The notes beneath the pieces are model-generated. The model was given only the letters and a program-made list of their open reading frames with translations. It did no database searches and was not told where the DNA came from. A DNA stretch of 63,904 nucleotides, from NCBI GenBank assembly GCA_964450945.1, contig CAYVHI010000001.1, positions 1 through 63,904 on the forward strand. Reading direction: 5' to 3'. Shown here piece by piece: positions 15,469 to 63,904 of this stretch. The DNA comes from an uncultured Rickettsiales bacterium (lineage in GTDB: Bacteria > Pseudomonadota > Alphaproteobacteria > Rickettsiales > JABDBP01). The position numbers were made by a program, and so were the translations under genes. The number at the start of each line of letters is the position of its first letter. Position 1 is the first letter of the stretch.

Positions 15469-16629
15469 ATGAAACCAACAGCAAAACCAAAGAACCCATG
15501 TTTCTCATCCGGCCCATGTGCAAAGCGCCCGGGCTGGAGCATTGATGCATTAAAATCAGCGGCCACCGGTCTTTCCCACCGTGGCAAAACCGGCAAGGCA
15601 AAACTTGCCGAAGTTATAGATTTATCTAAAAAAATATTAGGAATTCCTTCGGATTACCATTTAGGAATCGTACCTGCATCTGATACCGGAGCGGTTGAAA
15701 TGGCTATGTGGAACCTGCTTGGTGAACGCGGCGTTGATATTGTTGCGTTTGAATCTTTTGGTTCTGGCTGGGCTGGCGATGCAGAGAAACAATTAAAAAT
15801 AAAAGATTTAAAAGTTCATAAAGCGGATTACGGAAAACTGCCTGATTTATCAAAAGTTGATACAAACCGTGATGTGGTTTTCACATGGAACGGCACCACA
15901 TCAGGCGTTCGTATACCAAATGCTGATTGGATAAAAGATGACAGGCAGGGTTTAACCATATGCGATGCGACATCCGCGGTTTTCGCCATGGAACTTCCAT
16001 GGAAAAAACTGGATGTGGTTACCTATTCATGGCAGAAGGCGATGGGCGGTGAAGCCGCTCACGGCATTTTAATTTTATCTCCGCGCGCAGTACAACGCTT
16101 GGAAACATACAAGCCGGCATGGCCACTACCAAAGATTTTCCAGCTTACCAAAGGCGGAAAATTAATTGATGGAATTTTTAAAGGTGAAACCATAAACACT
16201 CCTTCAATGCTTTGCGTTGAAGATGCTATTGATGGCCTGAAATGGGCTGAAAAAATCGGTGGCCAGAAAGAGCTCATCCGCCGCAGCGAAGCAAACCTTA
16301 AAGTACTTTCTGACTGGGTGGCAAAATCCTCATGGATAAAATTTTTGGCAGAGGACCCGAAAACAATTTCATGCACATCAGTATGCTTCAAGATTGTTGA
16401 TGGGTGGTATACATCTTTAGGTGTTGAAGATCAGGCTGCCAAGGCAAAAGAGCTTACATCAATCCTAGAGAAAGAAGGTGTGGCTTATGATATCGGCGCT
16501 TACCGTGATGCGCCTCCCGGAATCCGCATCTGGGCCGGTTCAACTGTTGAAACTTCTGATGTTCAGGTACTCACTAGCTGGCTCGACTGGGCATTCACTC
16601 AGGTGAAAGATAAAGCGAAAGCGGCTTAA
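15469..16629 (+). CDS. serC: Phosphoserine aminotransferase
   Basis: [48 protein letters not shown]. Confidence 0.96.
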
Positions 16630-16732
16630 AACTTAAGAATATCCTTATAAATCAATATATTATATTTAGTATACTGTAATAAACCTGTAATCTTAGTGGG
16701 TTATAATGATAAGTACATCATACCCCAAAGGT

Positions 16733-16837
16733 TATAGAACAATACAGTTCTGAAAAAAAACACTGCAACAAGTTATGCCGAAAGGCTAAAAGGCTTTAAG
16801 AGCCTCTTGTAAAGCAGATGAACTGTAATGTTCTATA
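16733..16837 (+). ncRNA. Structured 5' leader of cassette 1
   Basis: Arms tatagaacaatacagttc / gaactgtaatgttctata enclose nested stems ctgc/gcag and acaag/cttgt plus hairpins gcc-gaaa-ggc and aggct-ttaag-agcct. Confidence 0.55.
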
Positions 16838-16865
16838 TACCCTCCGGAAAAAAAGGAGGTGTATG

Positions 16866-17315
16866 ATGGCCCGCAAGAAGAAGGAAAAACCTGACCGGAA
16901 GCCAGACCCAAAGCCAGAGGCGCTGCCGCCACCCGAAGAAATCAAGGTGAAAATCAAATCGAAGATGACAGGCAACATCTTCGGTGAGACGCCGGTCTAC
17001 AAATGGCCGGAGAAGCCTGAGAACTGGCGGATGGATTGGCCGCCAGAGCGCCAAAAGGTCGACATGGCAACAGAGTTCCTTACCTTTGAACTCGTCGGCC
17101 TGCCAGAAGGTGTTCGCGGTGAAGGGGCAGCCAACTGGTTCAAACTGAAGGGAAAGGTTAATAAACCCTTCACGCTGGTGGTGATTAGGCTCGGTCAGTC
17201 ACCAAACTGCGGAGAGGTGCTGTTAGAGAAAAAGTTCGAGGTCGGTAACATCGAATTCAAGCACTCTTTCTCCTACGCCATGCAACTGCTAGAGATCACC
17301 TATACCTTCGCCTAA
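16866..17315 (+). CDS. Cassette ORF, hypothetical (149 aa)
   Basis: Preceded by aggaggtgtatgATG and followed by a hairpin at 17337..17372. Confidence 0.7.
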   Translation: MARKKKEKPDRKPDPKPEALPPPEEIKVKIKSKMTGNIFGETPVYKWPEKPENWRMDWPPERQKVDMATEFLTFELVGLPEGVRGEGAANWFKLKGKVNKPFTLVVIRLGQSPNCGEVLLEKKFEVGNIEFKHSFSYAMQLLEITYTFA

Positions 17316-17413
17316 GGTGTAAGTGAAAAACCAACCGACCTCCCACACTAAAGCCAATAGTGTGGGAAGGCCGGGCGGTAAATTCAGAAAATCTCCCATA
17401 AAACCCCCTACAT

Positions 17414-17429
17414 TTAACAAAACCTTAAC
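17414..17429 (+). promoter_or_regulatory. CtrA-type box of cassette 2
   Basis: ttaacaaaaccttaac, with a -10-like tattat 22 nt downstream. Confidence 0.6.
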
Positions 17430-17482
17430 ACTATATCTCCCTAATTTTTGGTATTATTCAGGCTCGCCCTACCATTTCAACT

Positions 17483-17627
17483 GGTTACAGAACTTTAAAT
17501 TTTGTTCTTTTCATCTCAAACATAGCTGGCCATCGGCCATAGCAACAAACCACGGCTTAAACATTGCCCTAGGTTTTGCGTCGCTATGATTTTTGAGTAA
17601 AAGAACAAAATTTAAAGTTCTGTGACC
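17483..17627 (+). ncRNA. Structured 5' leader of cassette 2
   Basis: 29-bp closing stem ggttacagaactttaaattttgttctttt / aaaagaacaaaatttaaagttctgtgacc (one G-U pair); inner catagc/gctatg multibranch. Confidence 0.65.
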
Positions 17628-17646
17628 CAAGCTGGGAGTCAGTTCG

Positions 17647-17949
17647 ATGACCGAGATCAAGGACATCTTCGTGGGCTGGGTCGGCGGGTCTGTGGCCTTC
17701 AGCCACCACGGCAAGAGCGGTACCTACACCGCGACCGCGACGTACTACGACGGCGGCGAGATGAAGCACACGTGGGTGGGCAAGGACGAGAAGTCCCCCC
17801 ACCAGCAGCACTGCTTCCCGATGTACCGTCCGCTCGGCAACGAGAAGCCGGGCGAGCCGAACCTCGGCGGCGGCATCGTCAGCGTCAAGGTGACGGACGA
17901 GGCCGGGGTGGTGGTCCTCGAGTTCGACGCGACGAAGAGCGGCATCTGA
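17647..17949 (+). CDS. Cassette ORF, hypothetical beta-rich protein (100 aa)
   Basis: Codons almost all end in G/C; nested terminator at 17963..18013. Confidence 0.75.
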   Translation: MTEIKDIFVGWVGGSVAFSHHGKSGTYTATATYYDGGEMKHTWVGKDEKSPHQQHCFPMYRPLGNEKPGEPNLGGGIVSVKVTDEAGVVVLEFDATKSGI

Positions 17950-18042
17950 TCTGAATGAACGATAACCCCGTCTGTACAAGCTTCCATAGTAAGGAAGAAG
18001 TACAGCGGGGTTAGGCGTTTTAAAGCCCTGCATCTCCTACAT

Positions 18043-18087
18043 TTCATAAAACCTTAACTTTATTAAAACCCCTAGATTTGCTATAAT
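18043..18087 (+). promoter_or_regulatory. CtrA-like box plus -10 of cassette 3
   Basis: ttcataaaaccttaac followed 23 nt later by tataat (gctataat). Confidence 0.55.
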
Positions 18088-18203
18088 TTCCGCTTCAATC
18101 ACATTGCAGGATGCAAGTGTAAGCCTGGCGGGAAAATAGGCACCCACCAGTTCCCTATAGTTTTGTGTAACTTTGAGTTCGCCCTGAAAGAGAAGGTGTT
18201 TCA

Positions 18204-18431
18204 GTGAAGGTCGAAAGGAAGTTCAGTGTCACCGTCACGTACGATGACACCAGCGAAACGGCCCACGTCACGGGCTACCACACCAAGCCGTTCTGTGTCG
18301 CCATCATGAAGGGCCGCGCTAACCTGGCCACCAAGCGCTACCCCGCCAACCAGAACCACGATGACTACTTCAAGGTCGAGACGGCCCCGAAGGAGTCGGA
18401 GATCACCATCGTGATCTACGAATCCAGGTAG
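18204..18431 (+). CDS. Cassette ORF, hypothetical (75 aa)
   Basis: GTG start after agaaggtg; GC-rich codons; strong hairpin at 18436..18483. Confidence 0.7.
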   Translation: MKVERKFSVTVTYDDTSETAHVTGYHTKPFCVAIMKGRANLATKRYPANQNHDDYFKVETAPKESEITIVIYESR

Positions 18432-18484
18432 TCAATCTACCGGCTTCCTGCTGCCAAGCCTTAAGGCAGCAGGGGCCGGTGGAT

Positions 18485-18559
18485 TTAACAAAACCTTAAC
18501 ACTAAAAAACCCTAAAATACTATATAATCTGCGGTTCATCGTACCCTCGGGTTATAGAA
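18485..18559 (+). promoter_or_regulatory. CtrA box, -10 and leader start of cassette 4 (repeat copy 1)
   Basis: ttaacaaaaccttaac...tataat; 18496..18559 is identical to 19100..19163 (64 bp). Confidence 0.7.
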
Positions 18560-18670
18560 GTCTTTCTTCTTTCAAAATCACATCATGAGCAAGCCTAGCA
18601 AAGGTTGCCTGGAATGTGTTGAAGAACAGATTATCTATAAGCCCGCGAAGAGAAAGTCAGGAGGTGTATG

Positions 18671-19006
18671 ATGGAACTGTTCAACGGGCACGGCATCATG
18701 GTGACCGACAATGGCAAGAACATCGTCATCAAGGTCACCGGCAGCACCGCCAAGGTGGCGATCACCCCGCAGTTCATCGGCTACTACGTCGATGAGCCGC
18801 CACGGGCGATCATGATGCCCAAGTGCCAGCCCGTCACCGTTACCGGGAACGACATCGGAACGCTCACCGTCATCCTGCCCAAGGTCAGGGTGGAGACGGT
18901 CATCGGCACGGACGATGGCAAGAAGTCGGTCCGCCCGGTGATGACGGCCCTGATGCTGGAGATGCCGCAGGAAACCAAGTACTTGAGCATCGAGGAAGAC
19001 AACTAA
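18671..19006 (+). CDS. Cassette ORF, hypothetical beta-rich protein
   Basis: aggaggtgtatgATG; GC-rich codons; terminator at 19019..19064. Confidence 0.75.
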   Translation: MELFNGHGIMVTDNGKNIVIKVTGSTAKVAITPQFIGYYVDEPPRAIMMPKCQPVTVTGNDIGTLTVILPKVRVETVIGTDDGKKSVRPVMTALMLEMPQETKYLSIEEDN

Positions 19007-19088
19007 GCAGTAAATGATAACCCCCTTTCATACCTTCGTAGGTATGTCGCCTCAGGGGGTTTTTCATTTTAAAAAACTCCCTGCCCTT

Positions 19089-19163
19089 TTAACAAAACTT
19101 TAACACTAAAAAACCCTAAAATACTATATAATCTGCGGTTCATCGTACCCTCGGGTTATAGAA
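19089..19163 (+). promoter_or_regulatory. CtrA box, -10 and leader start of cassette 5 (repeat copy 2)
   Basis: ttaacaaaactttaac plus the 64-bp block identical to cassette 4. Confidence 0.7.
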
Positions 19164-19275
19164 CCACCGTTCTCCAAAACATACCACACTGTGCTACATA
19201 ACTTCGTGAGTTATGGCTGAAGTGTCGGTTGGAGGCGACCTCTATACCTGTGAAAAGAGAGTTAGGAGGTGTATG

Positions 19276-19605
19276 ATGAAGCTGCGCTACGAGATGCCCG
19301 TCGAGCACCTGAGCTACAGCGTCGAGATCGAGGCGAAGAGGGTGAGCGACTGGGTGGACGAGATCATCGTCACCATCGACTGCAGCAAGAGCGCGCAGGA
19401 CGTGTGGGTGCGGATCAGGATCCTCGGCGACGGCGTGGCCACGGTCTACTGCCGGGGTCACCAGAGCACCCGCAAGGTCCTGACCCTGGACAGCTTCAAC
19501 GACAACAGCAGCACGCCGCTCATCATCGGCGGCACGATCATCATCAAGGAGATGGAGATCGAGGAGACGAGCGGTGAGATCTTCAGGATGGAGTACAAGT
19601 ACTAG
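19276..19605 (+). CDS. Cassette ORF, hypothetical beta-rich protein (109 aa)
   Basis: aggaggtgtatgATG; GC-rich codons; terminator at 19617..19665. Confidence 0.75.
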   Translation: MKLRYEMPVEHLSYSVEIEAKRVSDWVDEIIVTIDCSKSAQDVWVRIRILGDGVATVYCRGHQSTRKVLTLDSFNDNSSTPLIIGGTIIIKEMEIEETSGEIFRMEYKY

Positions 19606-19616
19606 TAGAAAATAAG

Positions 19617-19665
19617 AACCCCCCTATTACACCGCGCAAGGTGTATCGCCCAAGGGGGGTTTTTT
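19617..19665 (+). terminator. Intrinsic terminator with bulged inner hairpin
   Basis: aacccccc..tacacc-loop-ggtgta-tcgcc..ggggggtttttt; homologous to 19019..19064. Confidence 0.7.
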
Positions 19666-19701
19666 AACGCTTTGTTTTTTCTATTAATTTTCTTAAAAAA
19701 A

Positions 19702-20385: not shown

Positions 20386-21963
20386 ATGCCTAAAGTATTG
20401 ATTTCAGATAAGCTAAGCCAGCAGGCTGTAGATATATTTAAAAAGAACAAGGTCGATGTTGATGTAAAAACCGGCCTCTCTGAAGATGAGCTGATTAAAA
20501 TCATCGGCGAATATGATGGCCTTGCCATCCGCTCTGCAACAAAGGTTACCAAAAAGGTACTTGAAGCTGCCAAAAAATTAAAAGTTGTCGGCCGCGCCGG
20601 TATTGGTGTTGATAACGTGGATATCCCTGCTGCAACAGCGGCGGGCATAATCGTAATGAACACACCTTTTGGCAACTCCATAACTACTGCTGAACATTCA
20701 ATCGCGCTTATGATGTCACTCGCGCGTGAGATTCCTGCTGCTAATACTTCTACTCAGGCTGGCAAGTGGGAGAAAAATAAATTCATGGGTGTTGAGCTTT
20801 ATTCAAAAACCCTTGGTCTCATTGGTTGCGGCAATATAGGCTCTATAGTTGCTGACCGCGCTCAGGGGCTAAAAATGAAAGTCGTTGTGTATGATCCGTT
20901 CTTAACGCCGGAGCGCGCAAAAGACATAAACGTTGAAAAAGTTGAGCTTGATGATCTGTTAAAACGCGCGGATTTCATATCTCTCCACACACCACTCAAT
21001 GAACAGACAAAAAATATTTTGAATAAACAATCGCTGGCAAAATGCAAGAAAGGTGTTCGCATTGTTAACTGCGCACGCGGCGGCCTGGTTGATGAAAATG
21101 CCCTCAAGGAAGCAATTGATTCCGGCCATGTTGCGGGTGCGGCGTTTGACGTATTCACCGAAGAACCGGCAAAAACAAATCCGCTTTTCGGTTCGGAAAA
21201 AACCGTGTGCACACCGCATCTTGGCGCTTCAACATCTGAAGCTCAGGAGAATGTGGCGCTCCAGGTTGCTGAACAGATTTCAGAATACTTAACAACTGGC
21301 ACAGTAACCAACGCAATCAATATGCCTTCGGTCTCCGCTGAGGATGCAGCGAAGTTAAAACCATACCTGCAGCTTGCGGATCAGCTTGGCAGCTTCGCCG
21401 GCCAGCTCACAGAGAGCGCAATAAAAGCAATCAAGATTGAATATGAAGGTTCGGTTGCGGAACTTAACACAAGGCCGATCACCGCGGTTCTTGTTAAAGG
21501 GCTTCTCACTCCGCTGGTTGAAGGTGTGAATATGGTGAACGCTCCTGTTGTTGCCAAGGAGCGCAATATAAAGATCAGTGAAGTTAAAAATGAAGAGTGT
21601 GATGATTATCAAACAATCATCCGCTTAACAGTCACAACAGAAAAGCGTGACCGTACAATCACCGGAACACTTTTCGGCGGCACAAAACCACGTATCGTGG
21701 AAGTCGGCGGCATCAAGCTTGAAGCTGGTTTAGGGCCACGCATGCTTTATGTTAATAATGAAGATAAACCGGGTTTAATCGGCAATCTTGGAAAACTTCT
21801 TGGTGATGCTGGTGTTAATATCGCGAACTTCAATCTGGGGCGTAACGATGCCAAGAATGATGCGATAGCGTTACTTGAAATCGATCAGGAAATTTCCAAG
21901 GATGTCTGTGAAAAGATCGGCAAGCTGCCAAGCGTTAAACAAGTTAAGGTGATGAAGTTTTAA
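20386..21963 (+). CDS. serA: D-3-phosphoglycerate dehydrogenase
   Basis: GRAGIGVDNVD, NTPFGNSITTAEH, GCGNIG, TPHLGAST.EAQ, C-terminal ACT domain (D.PGLIG). Confidence 0.97.
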   Translation: MPKVLISDKLSQQAVDIFKKNKVDVDVKTGLSEDELIKIIGEYDGLAIRSATKVTKKVLEAAKKLKVVGRAGIGVDNVDIPAATAAGIIVMNTPFGNSITTAEHSIALMMSLAREIPAANTSTQAGKWEKNKFMGVELYSKTLGLIGCGNIGSIVADRAQGLKMKVVVYDPFLTPERAKDINVEKVELDDLLKRADFISLHTPLNEQTKNILNKQSLAKCKKGVRIVNCARGGLVDENALKEAIDSGHVAGAAFDVFTEEPAKTNPLFGSEKTVCTPHLGASTSEAQENVALQVAEQISEYLTTGTVTNAINMPSVSAEDAAKLKPYLQLADQLGSFAGQLTESAIKAIKIEYEGSVAELNTRPITAVLVKGLLTPLVEGVNMVNAPVVAKERNIKISEVKNEECDDYQTIIRLTVTTEKRDRTITGTLFGGTKPRIVEVGGIKLEAGLGPRMLYVNNEDKPGLIGNLGKLLGDAGVNIANFNLGRNDAKNDAIALLEIDQEISKDVCEKIGKLPSVKQVKVMKF

Positions 21964-22023: not shown

Positions 22024-22260
22024 TTACACCGGAGGATCCGGTTTCGGCTCAGACGGTTTCAGCGCATCATTTGACCCAAGGGTCGTGACCGCCGCGATAC
22101 AAACCACTATGATCAGTGCCAGCATCACCGCGTACTCGACTTGCGTCGGGCCATCCTCGCGCTTCAAGAAATCAGTCAAGCTACGAACCAGCGGAGACTT
22201 CGGCTGTTTGCCCGACTCCTCCGGAGGACCCGTAGTTGTGACGTCTTTCTCGCCCGCCAT
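22024..22260 (-). CDS. flp: Flp/Fap-type (type IVb) pilin, cassette-like
   Basis: FLKREDGPTQVEYAVMLALIIVVCIAAVTTLG pilin motif; RBS gaaagggggtgataaacATG. Confidence 0.8.
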   Translation of the reverse strand: MAGEKDVTTTGPPEESGKQPKSPLVRSLTDFLKREDGPTQVEYAVMLALIIVVCIAAVTTLGSNDALKPSEPKPDPPV

Positions 22261-59019: not shown

Positions 59020-59257
59020 TTTTCCTCACTCTTATATCATTCTAACACATATTTATTAATGTAAGATTAATTTTTTGTTTCATTTTATTTCGCCCAACAT
59101 ATTGATATTGTTATATAATTCTCTTCGATAACTAGCGTTAACAATGGTTAAACTAGTTCAAATTTTAGCTATCTGATAAAAAATAGTATGGATTATGTAA
59201 TCAAAAATTCACACTTTCTGGGATATAAATCTTTATAATTAGCCCTGTTCTACTGTC

Positions 59258-59375
59258 TTTTCAGGAAGATTAGTTATGGTGCCAGAAATGGTACTGAAAA
59301 AATACTCAAAAGCACTTTAGTGCTTGAAGCCGGCCCCTTTGCCGTCTTTATGAGTTAACTAATCTTCCTAAAAAG
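59258..59375 (+). ncRNA. Structured 5' leader of the thiC-proximal cassette
   Basis: Perfect 14-bp stem aggaagattagtta / taactaatcttcct; inner gtgcca-gaaa-tggtac, actca/tgagt and aagcac/gtgctt stems. Confidence 0.6.
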
Positions 59376-59399
59376 CTAGTAGGATGGAGGATTCCAGCC

Positions 59400-59540
59400 A
59401 TGTTCGACCCGCTCGGTTTCGCCAAAAAGTCGTGGACGGAGATCGGCATCACGCTCGGCGCGGTTATCATCGGCGTGACGGTGGCCGTCTACATCGCGTT
59501 CCCGGTGATCAAGATGTTCATCGAAAACATGAAGCCGTAA
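59400..59540 (+). CDS. Cassette ORF, 46 aa single-TM peptide
   Basis: ggaggattccagccATG; MFDPLGFAKKSWTEIGITLGAVIIGVTVAVYIAFPVIKMFIENMKP; GC-rich codons; terminator cagacccc..ggggtctg. Not in the ORF track (under 60 aa). Confidence 0.65.
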   Translation: MFDPLGFAKKSWTEIGITLGAVIIGVTVAVYIAFPVIKMFIENMKP

Positions 59541-62384: not shown

Positions 62385-62519
62385 TCAGCCGAAAAAACGG
62401 TAGATTTCTTCAGCTTTCGCAGGGAGTGGAACCGGGAACTTTGCCTTTCGCCGAAGTTTCGGCGGCGGGCAGTTTTCCGGTGACACCCACGGCGTTCTTA
62501 GGCCCATTTTCTTGGCCAT
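62385..62519 (-). CDS. Cassette ORF, 44 aa basic Pro-rich peptide
   Basis: gaaaggaggatagctacaATG; MAKKMGLRTPWVSPENCPPPKLRRKAKFPVPLPAKAEEIYRFFG; promoter box 62635..62650; terminator aaaccgccg..cggcggttt. Confidence 0.5.
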   Translation of the reverse strand: MAKKMGLRTPWVSPENCPPPKLRRKAKFPVPLPAKAEEIYRFFG

Positions 62520-62717
62520 TGTAGCTATCCTCCTTTCTTGGGCGATATGCTTAAGACTTTTTAGGGCCCGTCACCCTAAAAAGTCGAAAGTCCAAACTGA
62601 ACTTAACTGAACGTTTCAGTTATACACCTAAATTGTTAAAATTTTATGAATGGAGAATTTTTTTTGACTTTAAACGGTTCGGGGCCCCACTCCTTTAGAG
62701 AGGGGGCCCCGATGTTT

Positions 62718-62972
62718 TTATACTGGTTGTTTATCCTCTGGCCAGTATGCCAGGTAGCCTCGGCTTCGTTTGGTCATCACCATGACGCAGGTGATGATTT
62801 TCTCAGAATTCCCGCCTGTCGCTTCAATCACGTCGTCGAATCCCTCGCAGGTTCCGTCATCATATTGGATGATGACATCGATTCCTGTGATTGTCAGATC
62901 AAGCAACTTGACACTGGCTTCGTGCTTGTCACTGCTGACGTTGATTGCGACGCTCTTGGTAGCCTTCGTCAT
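62718..62972 (-). CDS. Cassette ORF, small beta-rich family 1
   Basis: aggaggtgtgtgATG; ends IITCVMVM...YLAYWPED; terminator cggggcccc..ggggccccg. Confidence 0.7.
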   Translation of the reverse strand: MTKATKSVAINVSSDKHEASVKLLDLTITGIDVIIQYDDGTCEGFDDVIEATGGNSEKIITCVMVMTKRSRGYLAYWPEDKQPV

Positions 62973-63136
62973 CACACACCTCCTTCTTGATCATGAGTTT
63001 CAGATCAGTGTGGTTCTAACTTGCTACGGGCACTTTGGCCTACTAAGCAAGTAATTTATGAAGAACCAAACTTCTGTTCTGTAACCCAGTGGGTAGTGTG
63101 AACCCAGAATTATATAGGAAATATACTGGTTTTAGT

Positions 63137-63771: not shown

Positions 63772-63904
63772 CGTGGGAGTGGTTGGGCGAAGCCCAGAGC
63801 GACCCGGAAAATTATAAAACTTCGTGGGAGTGGTTGGGCGAAGCCCAGAGCGACCCGGAAAATTATAAAACTTCGTGGGAGTGGTTGGGCGAAGCCCAGA
63901 GCGA
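63772..63904 (+). repeat. 51-bp tandem repeat (two full copies plus a partial third), truncated at the window end
   Basis: cgtgggagtggttgggcgaagcccagagcgacccggaaaattataaaactt at 63772, 63823 and 63874. Confidence 0.92.

What the first reader, a model, noticed from the sequence alone, without database searches (positions are those of the whole stretch)
16733..19250. Leaders with a conserved architecture but unrelated sequence: long closing stem, A-rich 5' bulge, inner multibranch
Seen: leaders at 16733-16837 (18-bp arms), 17483-17627 (29-bp arms), ~18550-18645, ~19154-19240, 59258-59375 (14-bp perfect) and ~62990-63085 (-). Each has a long outer duplex, then an ~8-10 nt A-rich single-strand stretch on the 5' side (gaaaaaaaaca, catctcaaa, tttcaaaat, aaacatac, gaaaaaat, tcataaatt), then an inner stem with hairpins. 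The RBS lies outside, ~20-30 nt downstream. Five begin with ggtta(t/c)agaa. Inference: processed or stabilised RNAs (long duplexes suit RNase III). The layout recalls retron a1/a2 arms, but there is no RT here, so the RNA itself may be the functional product.
Basis: partly seen in the sequence, partly recalled or inferred. Interest (0 to 1): 0.75.

Follow-up and report, generated by a model that had tools for sequence, protein, structure and literature searches.

The report
Start-codon-locking leader RNAs of orphan genes
Eleven small orphan genes in one uncultured Rickettsiales-like bacterium share a new, genome-private type of folded mRNA leader, in which the first bases of the transcript pair with the start codon across a long RNA rod, so the messages are probably made stable but locked against translation.

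Summary
The stems are real. Folding z-scores run from -2.5 to -13 against dinucleotide shuffles. The leaders are not unrelated in sequence.

All 11 share TACCC-N3-5-GGTTAYAGAAC about 21-25 nt after a TATAAT box. A 20-30 bp rod follows. Eight of 11 have a G-poor A/U-rich loop on the 5' side only, then a variable tip.

The first ~15 nt of the predicted transcript pair with the SD-AUG spacer and the start codon. This pairing co-varies with the start context, including one GTG start.

The leaders match no Rfam family. They were not found in 200 relatives, in the GTDB genome contigs or in the JGI metagenome contigs. The genome has no reverse transcriptase, Hfq, integron integrase or HUH transposase. 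It has RNase III and RNase E/G.

My best reading is a cis-acting "latch-and-rod" 5' UTR. It masks translation initiation and protects the 5' end, and it needs an active opener. In silico it does not melt up to 65 C. The retron and stand-alone-RNA readings are rejected. Transcription, the start site and the opener are untested.

The parts
16702..16707 (+). -10 box TATAAT of cassette 1. The predicted transcript starts about 7 nt downstream.
   Evidence: Read from the sequence. The distance from the -10 box to GGTTAYAGAAC is 21-25 nt in all 11 copies.
16716..16726 (+). Latch (P0) 5' strand of leader 1, CATCATACCCC.
   Evidence: Pairs with GG-U-GUAUGAUG at 16858-16868 in the minimum-energy fold. 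Duplex energy -14.0 kcal/mol.
16730..16841 (+). Rod of leader 1. P1 is GGTTATAGAAC/GTTCTATA, followed by P2, a 12-nt A-rich 5' loop (UGAAAAAAAACA) and a two-hairpin tip.
   Evidence: MFE -39.1 kcal/mol, z -7.3.
16855..16868 (+). SD GGAGG plus the latch 3' strand, including start codon ATG 16866.
   Evidence: Unpaired probability is 0.00 for the start codon and 0.02 for the SD.
17461..17482 (+). 5' segment of leader 2 (GGCTCGCCCTACCATTTCAACT). This is the weakest latch of the family.
   Evidence: duplex only -9.7 kcal/mol. Start codon unpaired probability is 0.55.
17483..17627 (+). Rod of leader 2, with 29-bp perfect arms and a branched interior.
   Evidence: MFE -66.6 kcal/mol, z -13.0.
18485..18549 (+). 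Promoter module of cassette 4. It holds a CtrA-type box TTAACAAAACCTTAAC, TATAAT at 18523-18528, and the latch 5' strand TTCATCGTACCCTCG.
   Evidence: 98% identical to the module at 19090-19153, while the leader interiors are only 64% alike.
18550..18643 (+). Rod of leader 3, with the 9-nt 5' loop UUUCAAAAU.
   Evidence: z -3.05. Model R1 E = 0.07.
18660..18673 (+). SD plus the latch 3' strand, with start ATG 18671.
   Evidence: Duplex -19.8 kcal/mol. Start codon unpaired probability 0.00.
19090..19153 (+). Promoter module and latch 5' strand of cassette 5.
19154..19248 (+). Rod of leader 4.
   Evidence: z -2.46. The fold containing P1 lies only 1.1 kcal/mol above the full-leader MFE.
19265..19278 (+). 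SD plus the latch 3' strand, with start ATG 19276.
   Evidence: Duplex -20.3 kcal/mol. Start codon unpaired probability 0.00.
62995..63086 (-). Rod of leader 5, a short-type family member.
   Evidence: z -3.2. Model R1 scores 90.6 bits.
63096..63114 (-). TATAAT (63114-63109) and the latch 5' strand TTCACAC (63102-63096) of leader 5.
   Evidence: TCACAC pairs with GUGUGA at the start codon.
62970..62985 (-). SD plus the latch 3' strand, with start ATG 62972-62970.
59247..59378 (+). Leader of a different family, not a member. The 5' end closes a ~28-bp rod with a 14-bp perfect core, and the rod ends just before the SD. The start codon is left free.
   Evidence: fold. It has no GGTTAYAGAA and no R1 match.
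16866..17315 (+). Downstream ORF of 149 aa, an orphan, GC3 0.67.
17647..17949 (+). Downstream ORF of 100 aa, an orphan, GC3 0.96.
18671..19006 (+). Downstream ORF of 111 aa, GC3 0.91.
19276..19605 (+). Downstream ORF of 109 aa, GC3 0.98.
62718..62972 (-). Downstream ORF of 84 aa, GC3 0.61.

Best explanation
These are 11 paralogous copies of a previously undescribed cis-acting 5' UTR element, which I call a 'latch-and-rod' leader. They belong to stand-alone small orphan-gene cassettes driven by CtrA-box-type promoters.

How it is built:
- The first ~15 nt of the transcript (consensus UUCAYC.UACCCAY) pair with the SD-AUG spacer and the start codon. This is the latch, P0.
- The 70-145 nt between the two latch strands fold on their own into a long, nearly continuous duplex, the rod. 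Its 5' strand GGUUAYAGAAC is invariant, and it continues through P1b and P2.
- The rod is interrupted by a G-poor A/U-rich loop on the 5' side only, and it ends in a variable hairpin tip.

What this implies:
- The latch hides the start codon and leaves no free 5' end. The mRNA should therefore be shielded from 5'-end-dependent decay and be translationally throttled or silent.
- The latch is too stable to melt with temperature, so expression needs an active opener. Candidates are RNase III cutting the rod, RNase E cutting the A/U loop, 30S/S1 standby binding at the loop or the SD linker, or a factor that recognises the invariant GGUUAYAGAAC strand.

Shown: the sequence family, the predicted folds, covariation, in-silico occlusion of the start region, and the enzyme inventory.
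Inferred: the transcription start site, folding in vivo, translational latency, and the identity of the opener.
For: - **Family.** There are 11 copies on contig C1. R1 finds the six training copies and 16721-16845 in the genome search; the filters-off scan of the window plus C1:63905-76000 adds 66823- and 18542.
- **Structure.** Z-scores are -2.5 to -13 against dinucleotide shuffles. Among the six short copies 90.8% of pair cells are paired, against 31-47% for slid controls.
- **Latch present.** All 11 minimum-energy folds pair the 5' end with the start region. In each leader 6-9 of the 9 nt at -6..+3 are clamped by the first 22 nt. Among 398 ordinary genes 12.6% have 5 or more of those 9 nt clamped.
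- **Start codon hidden.** Seven of 11 leaders have a start codon unpaired probability <=0.05 and a spacer value <=0.2. Only 2.7% of 297 ordinary SD-bearing genes do.
- **Latch co-evolution.** Cognate 5'-end/start-region duplexes average -15.3 kcal/mol against -12.3 for non-cognate pairs (permutation p = 5e-5). Variants include CAUC/GAUG, CACAC/GUGUG, CAUCACUU/AAGUGAUG, ACCCAC/GUGGGU against ACCCAU/AUGGGU, and UUCAC/GUGAA where the start codon is GTG.
- **Rod covariation.** P1 position 6 switches C-G (5 copies) or U-A (5 copies). This includes the closely related pair 64452 and 65970.
- **RNA sense strand.** There are 1-7 G-U pairs per fold. The sense strand is more stable than the antisense in 6 of 11 copies, by 44 kcal/mol in total.
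- **Position.** The latch begins 6-8 nt after the TATAAT box and ends at the start codon. Those boundaries make sense only for a transcript.
- **Enzymes.** RNase III and RNase E/G are present.
- **Add-on to the promoter.** The same promoter type in relatives drives ordinary genes: the five with a called SD-led ORF just downstream have 9-37 nt leaders with little predicted structure.
Against: - No RNA data exist. No RNA run from this organism's biofilter samples was found; one soil metatranscriptome shared a few words. Transcription, the start site and any processing are therefore unverified.
- All copies are paralogs in one genome. Counts are not independent, and covariation could partly reflect co-inherited modules.
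- Latches are weak in 17483 and partial in 63086, 66823 and 67396.
- End-to-end pairing is not rare by chance. The background rate is 12.6%.
- Simulated cutting in the A/U loop frees the start region in only some copies.
- No trans-acting opener was found.
- Why the 5' strand of P1 is invariant remains unexplained.
Confidence: 0.6

Rival explanations
1. The element is a passive stabiliser or insulator only. The closed 5' end and the self-contained rod make a long-lived mRNA with a standard ribosome-binding context that does not depend on which ORF follows. Ribosomes open the latch unaided through the strong SD, and there is no regulated opening.
For: - The SD is very strong (AAGGAGGUG) and partly single-stranded, with unpaired probability up to 0.57.
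- An A-rich linker precedes it.
- Promoter, leader and ORF modules recombine as a mosaic, which suits an insulator.
- RNase E cleaves substrates with a base-paired 5' monophosphate end much more slowly (PMC3997798).
Against: - Latch duplexes of -10 to -20 kcal/mol cover the start codon. By the de Smit and van Duin relation, recalled from memory, this should cut initiation by orders of magnitude.
- Selection specifically tracks the start codon, including the GTG case. That is not needed for stability alone.
Confidence: 0.15
2. The element is the operator of a post-transcriptional regulon. A protein or small RNA recognises the invariant 5' strand (UACCC...GGUUAYAGAAC) and opens or closes all 11 latches together.
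For: - The 5' strand of P1 is invariant in all 11 copies apart from the covarying Y and a terminal G in 18550. The 3' strand varies freely, with G-U pairs and mismatches.
- The rest of the promoter module is only 56-87% conserved in most pairs.
Against: - No complementary small-RNA candidate exists outside the leaders.
- Hfq is absent.
- No binding protein has been identified.
Confidence: 0.12
3. It is a DNA-level element. The inverted repeats would be recombination or insertion hairpins (attC-, MITE- or REP-like), or an operator, that moves or swaps cassettes.
For: - The termini are conserved and palindromic, GGTTAYAGAAC...GTTCTRTAACC, around variable interiors.
- Module identity breaks off sharply at GGTTATAGAA.
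- One metagenome contig joins 18495 to 19100.
Against: - There is no integron integrase, only two Xer-like recombinases, and no HUH Y1 transposase.
- The core sites do not fit RYYYAAC/GTTRRRY.
- The outermost helix runs from the predicted transcript start to the start codon and co-varies with the start codon.
- G-U pairs favour the sense strand.
- No copies exist outside leaders.
- The contig joint lies in an ~80-bp repeat and may be an assembly collapse.
Confidence: 0.05
4. It is an RNA thermometer of the ROSE or fourU type, in which the start region melts open on a rise in temperature.
For: The start codon and part of the SD sit in a helix. ROSE elements are multi-copy in other alphaproteobacteria (PMC3669281, PMC9016746).
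Against: - The predicted unpaired probability of the start region hardly changes from 10 to 65 C in the ten copies with a firm latch; the weak-latch copy 17483 rises from 0.56 to 0.83.
- No ROSE or other Rfam match appears even at E<=10.
- The downstream genes are orphans, not heat-shock genes.
- The habitat is biofilters.
Confidence: 0.03
5. It is a stand-alone functional RNA: a retron-like msr/msd, a small RNA, a ribozyme or a riboswitch.
For: The structures are long and stable, and they contain a1/a2-like arms.
Against: - The genome has no reverse transcriptase.
- There is no Rfam family match.
- The conserved bases lie in helix strands, not in junctions or loops.
- The interiors are unrelated.
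- The element is physically locked to the start codon of an SD-led ORF.
Confidence: 0.03

Closest known systems
5' UTR locks of type I toxin mRNAs (tisB, dinQ, zorO; PMC7708055, PMC5066626, PMC5397157, PMC11228461)
   Same: - The primary transcript is predicted to be translationally inert, because 5'-proximal sequence pairs with the translation start region.
- The leader is long and highly structured.
- A single-stranded region far upstream could serve as a standby or processing site.
- Activation is expected to need an active step.
   Different: - The ORFs are 60-149 aa, mostly soluble orphans, not short hydrophobic toxins.
- No antisense antitoxin promoter was found.
- There are 11 copies sharing one conserved leader frame.
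- Simulated 5' trimming does not reliably free the start region.
RNase III-controlled leaders (rpoS inhibitory stem, PMC2831331; adhE, lambda N and T7 R1.1 sites, from memory)
   Same: - A long intramolecular duplex in the 5' UTR involves or lies next to the ribosome-binding site.
- The helix length suits RNase III.
- RNase III is encoded in the genome.
   Different: - No cleavage data exist.
- After a cut in the rod, the 5' fragment would still be held by about 20 bp (latch plus P1), so activation by RNase III alone is not obvious.
- There is no Hfq or small-RNA partner.
ROSE-like RNA thermometers of alphaproteobacteria (PMC3669281, PMC9016746)
   Same: Both are multi-copy cis-acting 5' UTR elements that hide the SD or AUG in a helix.
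   Different: - These leaders are far more stable and show no predicted melting up to 65 C.
- They do not match the ROSE models.
- They do not precede heat-shock genes.
5'-terminal stem-loop stabilisers (ompA, papA; references 92-95 of PMC3997798)
   Same: The 5' end is base-paired within a few nucleotides of the predicted start.
   Different: Here the partner strand is the gene's own start codon region, 100-170 nt away, rather than a local hairpin.
Self-contained promoter-leader-ORF-terminator cassettes (phage morons; PeSL cassettes of T4-type phages, both from memory)
   Same: These are stand-alone small orphan genes wedged between core genes. They share control modules that recombine as a mosaic.
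   Different: They are chromosomal and no phage context is seen. The shared module includes a structured start-codon latch.

Membership tests
Any Rfam 15 family | Match to a curated covariance model | tested here: not met
   No hit at gathering score in the whole window. No leader hit even at E<=10 in 16600-19700.
Retron msr/msd ncRNA | Adjacent reverse transcriptase gene | tested here: not met
   PF00078 finds nothing in the genome, which is rated 100% complete.
Retron msr/msd ncRNA | a1/a2 inverted repeats flanking the msr-msd region | tested here: inconclusive
   Long terminal arms exist. They sit inside a further helix that reaches the start codon, which retrons lack.
Integron attC site | Core sites R'' RYYYAAC and R' GTTRRRY, with AAC/GTT on the inner side | tested here: not met
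   The termini read GGTTAYAG...CTRTAACC, with GTT/AAC at the outer ends.
Integron attC site | Integron integrase IntI in the genome | tested here: not met
   TIGR02249 gives only two Xer-like ORFs, each matched in two pieces of 57-76 bits, against a cut-off of 265.
REP/RAYT or IS200/IS605-type hairpin elements | HUH Y1 transposase in the genome | tested here: not met
   PF01797 finds nothing.
ROSE / fourU RNA thermometer | SD/AUG helix that melts in the physiological temperature range | tested here: not met
   In the ten copies with a firm latch the start region's unpaired probability barely changes from 10 to 65 C in silico; 17483 rises from 0.56 to 0.83. This is a prediction only.
ROSE / fourU RNA thermometer | Lies upstream of heat-shock or virulence genes | tested here: not met
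   The nine downstream ORFs scanned have no Pfam family; the two searched against 5.8 billion proteins are orphans.
Type I toxin mRNA | 5'-proximal sequence occludes the translation start region in the primary transcript | tested here: met
   All 11 minimum-energy folds show it, and occlusion exceeds background. This is in silico, with predicted start sites.
Type I toxin mRNA | Small hydrophobic toxin ORF, usually under 60 aa | tested here: not met
   The ORFs are 60-149 aa and not hydrophobic. Only the non-member cassette at 59400 encodes a 46-aa membrane-type peptide.
Type I toxin mRNA | Cis- or trans-encoded antisense antitoxin RNA | tested here: inconclusive
   No convincing antisense promoter lies within the cassettes. 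No complementary locus exists elsewhere. Without RNA-seq, absence cannot be proved.
RNase III-processed leader | Quasi-continuous duplex of about 20 bp or more | tested here: met
   17483 has 29 bp perfect. 65970 has 7+15 bp. 64452 has about 21 bp. 16730 has 12+8 bp.
RNase III-processed leader | RNase III present and cleaving in vivo | not testable with these tools
   The gene is present at C22:15957-16337. No RNA run from this organism's samples was found.
Riboswitch / ribozyme | Conserved nucleotides concentrated in junctions and loops of a conserved core | tested here: not met
   The conserved bases lie in the P0 and P1 5' strands and in P2. The interiors are 37-77% alike, which is near random for most pairs.
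5'-terminal stem-loop stabiliser | 5' end paired within a few nt of the true start site | tested here: inconclusive
   The latch starts 6-8 nt after TATAAT. The start site is predicted, not mapped.

The most novel reading that the evidence does not exclude
The leader is the shared operator of a plug-and-play expression chassis.
- The conserved half (promoter, latch 5' strand and GGUUAYAGAAC) and the conserved RBS-latch block act as recombination handles. These let leader interiors and GC3-rich orphan ORFs be swapped.
- They also act as one RNA address. A single factor could unlock all 11 stored, decay-resistant mRNAs at once, for example at a CtrA-timed life-stage switch.
- That would make this a post-transcriptional regulon for newly born or rapidly evolving proteins.
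Probability: 0.12. Interest if true: 0.8.

Novelty: new variant of a known kind. Interest (0 to 1): 0.55.

Why it matters
Leaders that hide the start codon are well known. This one is unusual for three reasons.
- It is a multi-copy, modular design in which the very 5' end of the message is the lock.
- The lock is spanned by an RNase III-sized rod.
- It is reused in front of 11 unrelated orphan genes whose codons end almost entirely in G or C, in a 41% GC genome.

If the lock works as predicted, it gives a concrete and testable mechanism for how these odd cassettes are kept silent or stored. Earlier notes of this scan report similar cassettes in many uncultured lineages. It would also offer a compact natural part (latch plus insulating rod) for controlling translation independently of the downstream ORF.

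The significance is limited because the family is so far private to one uncultured genome, and nothing has been tested at the RNA level.

Tried and rejected
**Known RNA families.** Rfam gave nothing at gathering score or at E<=10. There are no tRNA or tmRNA genes.

**Searches for relatives.**
- The strict pattern found nothing in 200 relatives, nor in the JGI metagenome contigs or the GTDB genome contigs.
- A looser pattern gave 7 + 2 hits. All were chance matches inside coding sequence.
- Model R1 found nothing in 200 relatives.
- Sequence look-ups in the scan's own notes found nothing.
- Other samples hold the identical strain only, so they give no comparative signal.

**RNA evidence.** No RNA run from this organism's biofilter samples was found. 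One soil metatranscriptome has a 177-nt contig about 94% identical to ORF2 coding sequence. It says nothing about the leader.

**Rejected readings.**
- Retron: no RT.
- Hfq binding of the A-rich loop: no Hfq.
- Integron or HUH mobility.
- Thermometer.
- Spacer-like origin of the interiors: no other genomic match.
- Trans small RNA complementary to GGUUAYAGAAC: none found.

**Processing-activation model.** Cutting in the A/U loop freed the start region in only some copies in silico, so I do not claim it.

**Generalising the latch.** About 8 of 28 leaders from other families in this genome also clamp the start codon, against a 12.6% background. This is only a weak enrichment with guessed start sites.

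**Protein clues.**
- No Pfam family for the nine family ORFs scanned.
- Two ORFs are orphans among 5.8 billion proteins.
- One ORF has a short HCBP_related-like stretch.
- One single-sequence AlphaFold model is all-beta with pLDDT 61 and only generic Ig-like matches.


Full report
**Setting**

The window is the first 63.9 kb of a 160-kb contig of a 1.74-Mb, 41% GC genome. Earlier notes of this scan call it an uncultured Rickettsiales-like alphaproteobacterium. The same strain occurs in several biofilter metagenomes.

The finding lies between ORFs at 15469-16629 and 20386-21963, which I read by eye, without a search, as serC-like and serA-like. This 3-kb stretch holds five tandem stand-alone cassettes. 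Each cassette has:
- a CtrA-box-type promoter, TT(A/C)A-N7-TTAAC plus TATAAT;
- a long leader;
- a strong SD;
- a small ORF;
- a hairpin terminator.

The ORFs have GC3 of 0.67-0.98, against a genome mean of 0.37 (SD 0.08). Four of the five leaders begin with GGTTAYAGAA.

Yes for the stems. GGTTAYAGAA occurs five times in the window against 0.26 expected. Folded alone, the five window rods give z-scores of -7.3, -13.0, -3.1, -2.5 and -3.2 against dinucleotide-preserving shuffles.

- The elements are not unrelated in sequence. A genome-wide search finds exactly 11 copies, all on this contig. Their positions are 16730+, 17483+, 18550+, 19154+ and 63086- in the window, and 64452-, 65050-, 65970-, 66823-, 67396- and 68682- just past its end.
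- They share a fixed position, 21-25 nt after the -10 box. They also share a TACCC block, an invariant GGTTAYAGAAC, and in the short type GGTTCT...TAGAACC.
- A covariance model built from six short copies recovers 16721, 18542 and 66823. In the whole-genome search it finds nothing beyond the leaders and their antisense images; the filters-off scan of the window and the 12 kb beyond it adds only marginal matches at E 0.5 or worse.
- The inner multibranch exists only in 16730 and 17483 among the family members, and in the non-member 59258. The other members are plain rods with one apical hairpin.
- The 'A-rich 5' bulge' is real in 8 of 11 copies. It is 6-12 nt on the 5' side against 0-2 nt on the 3' side, it is G-poor, and it is absent in 17483.

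The RBS is not simply outside the structure. I folded each leader from about 6 nt after the TATAAT box to just past the start codon. In all 11 the minimum-energy structure pairs the extreme 5' end with the SD-AUG spacer and the start codon. I call this helix the latch, P0. It encloses the rod.

The latch co-varies with the start context:

| Leader(s) | 5' strand | Partner at the start region |
|---|---|---|
| several | UUCAUC.ACCCAC | GUGGGU.GAUGAA |
| 64452 | ACCCAU | AUGGGU |
| 63086 | CACAC | GUGUG |
| 66823, 68682 | CAUCACUU | AAGUGAUG |
| 65050 (GTG start) | UUCAC | GUGAA |

Quantitative support:
- Cognate 5'-end/start-region duplexes average -15.3 kcal/mol, against -12.3 for the 110 non-cognate pairings (permutation p = 5e-5).
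- In the equilibrium ensemble, seven of 11 leaders have a start codon unpaired probability <=0.05 and a spacer value <=0.2. Only 2.7% of 297 ordinary SD-bearing genes of this genome do.
- All 11 have 6-9 of the 9 nt around the start codon clamped by the first 22 nt. Among 398 background genes 12.6% have 5 or more of those 9 nt clamped.
- Within the rod, position 6 of P1 is C-G in five copies and U-A in five. It differs between the close relatives 64452 and 65970.
- G-U pairs make the sense strand more stable than the antisense in six copies, by 44 kcal/mol in total.

These points, and the fact that the latch runs from the predicted transcript start to the start codon, argue for structure in the mRNA rather than in DNA.

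**What it is not**

- It matches no Rfam family, even at E<=10.
- It is not a retron. No reverse transcriptase was found in a genome rated 100% complete.
- It is unlikely to be a DNA recombination hairpin. There is no integron integrase, only two Xer-like recombinases, and no HUH transposase. The termini do not fit attC core sites, and no copies exist outside leaders.
- It is not a thermometer by prediction. The start region's unpaired probability barely changes from 10 to 65 C in the ten copies with a firm latch; only the weak-latch copy 17483 rises, from 0.56 to 0.83.
- The A-rich loop is not an Hfq site, because there is no Hfq.
- No trans-acting RNA complementary to the invariant strand was found.
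- It is not a general property of the promoter type. In other families of the order, the same TCATAAA..TAAC..TATAAT promoter precedes ordinary genes. The five with a called SD-led ORF just downstream have 9-37 nt leaders with little predicted structure and GC3 of 0.35-0.50.

**How it most likely works**

Shown:
- a conserved, co-varying latch that hides the start codon and pairs the 5' end;
- an autonomously folding 20-30 bp rod that brings the latch strands together;
- an accessible A/U-rich 5' loop;
- a partly accessible strong SD in the junction;
- RNase III and RNase E/G genes in the genome.

Inferred: the mRNAs are made as decay-resistant but translationally throttled or silent molecules. 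A base-paired 5' end slows RNase E (PMC3997798), and a paired start codon blocks initiation.

Because the latch does not melt, an active opener is needed. The known parallels are:
- type I toxin mRNAs, whose primary transcripts are inert until processed (dinQ PMC5066626, tisB PMC7708055, zorO PMC5397157, PMC11228461);
- the rpoS leader, which is opened by an anti-antisense RNA and cut by RNase III (PMC2831331).

I could not identify the opener. A simulated cut in the A/U loop frees the start region in some copies only. A cut in the rod by RNase III would leave the 5' fragment held by about 20 bp.

The strict invariance of the P1 5' strand, set against a free 3' strand, hints at a second partner, protein or RNA. 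It remains unexplained.

**Modularity**

The promoter plus latch-5' module is 98% identical between 18550 and 19154, while their interiors are 64% alike and I see no similarity between their ORFs by eye. For 66823 and 68682 the figures are 87% and 51%. 68682 shares its interior with 63086 and 65050 but not its promoter type.

So promoter, leader interior, RBS-latch and ORF recombine as separate modules. Identity breaks off at GGTTAYAGAA. This fits the wider picture in earlier notes of this scan, which describe GC3-saturated orphan cassettes with conserved control frames in many genomes. I treat those notes as leads only.

In this genome about 40 such high-GC3 ORFs exist, with several other leader families. 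About 8 of 28 of those also clamp the start codon with the 5' end. With guessed start sites this is only a weak enrichment.

**The genes**

- Nine of the 11 downstream ORFs were scanned and have no Pfam family.
- The two searched are orphans among 5.8 billion proteins.
- One has a 38-residue stretch resembling the HCBP_related repeat of an RTX giant protein.
- One folds, at low confidence, as a generic beta-sandwich.

None of this explains why they need a lock.

**Verdict**

This is a real, new, genome-private family of cis-acting 5' UTR structures. It is best described as a latch-and-rod translational lock and 5'-end shield. It mis-stated their relatedness and missed the start-codon latch. 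Its RNase III idea remains plausible, and its retron and free-RNA ideas do not hold.

Confidence that this is an mRNA-level start-codon lock is about 0.6. The opener and the biological purpose are unknown. All of it rests on predicted start sites and folds.

Noticed in passing
window 22024-22260 (-): A 78-aa ORF with a Flp/Fap pilin motif (G/xxxxEY; PF04964 E = 5e-6, below the cut-off). GC3 is 0.66. It sits behind a CtrA-like box and an 82-nt leader.
   Followed up: partly
window 59400-59540 (+): A 46-aa ORF that looks by eye like a single-pass membrane peptide (GC3 0.89), behind the non-member rod leader at 59247-59378. Of all the cassettes this one looks most like a type I toxin.
   Followed up: no
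window 63800-63904, continuing to about C1:64150: At least six tandem copies of a ~50-bp repeat (ttttataattttccgggtcgctctgggcttcgcccaaccactcccacgaag), interrupted by an N-run assembly gap. Related single copies lie upstream of other cassettes, at C1:68200-68300 and C3:~68250-68300 (just upstream of the ORF at C3:68479).
   Followed up: no
window 19021-19075 and 19618-19670; also C1:64560-64610, C1:65590-65650 and many other contigs: Cassette terminators share a nested design. A G/C outer stem encloses an inner hairpin and a 3'-side bulge (U)CGCCCA, followed by TTTTAAAG. The same UCGCCCA word recurs near the 5' end or the SD of other leader families.
   Followed up: no
window 18495-19100: One metagenome contig (run X6) joins 18495 to 19100 and so skips cassette 4. 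The joint lies inside the ~80-bp identical promoter modules. It is either a natural deletion variant or an assembly collapse.
   Followed up: no
window 18695-18808 (residues 9-46 of the 111-aa ORF): This stretch resembles the HCBP_related (PF06594) repeat of a 2021-aa RTX-type protein. Identity is 42% and it matches in eight repeats.
   Followed up: partly
window 17656-17828: A soil metatranscriptome (run X13) holds a 177-nt contig about 94% identical to the GC3-0.96 ORF2. A close relative of this orphan gene therefore exists in soil and may be expressed there.
   Followed up: no
window 62519-62630 (-) and C1:65404-65510 (-): A second conserved leader family (ttcagttaagttcagtttggactttcgac...gggtgacgggccctaa...atcgcccaagaaaggagg) precedes 44-aa and 67-aa ORFs.
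   Followed up: no
C1:65895-65905 and C1:67313-67323 (beyond the window): In leaders 65970 and 67396 a second copy of the anti-start-region word (AACCCAC / AACCCAU) directly follows the P1 3' strand. It could re-mask the start region if the 5' end were removed.
   Followed up: partly
C1:66493-66699 and the ORF starting at C1:67299 (both minus strand, beyond the window): Two family ORFs share a H(G/T)GGHDDPG..GEP motif although their leaders differ. Several others are acidic and proline-rich, and look disordered.
   Followed up: no
genome contigs C65 and C69: These short contigs are GC3-rich throughout (ORFs of 320-898 aa with GC3 0.84-0.93). They look like contamination of the bin, not cassettes.
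   Followed up: no
loci L056-L068 (relatives G103, G034, G085, G113, G030 and others): The TCATAAA-N3-5-TAA...TATAAT promoter type recurs in other families of the order. Where an SD-led ORF was called within 40 nt, it is an ordinary gene with a short, nearly unstructured leader.
   Followed up: partly
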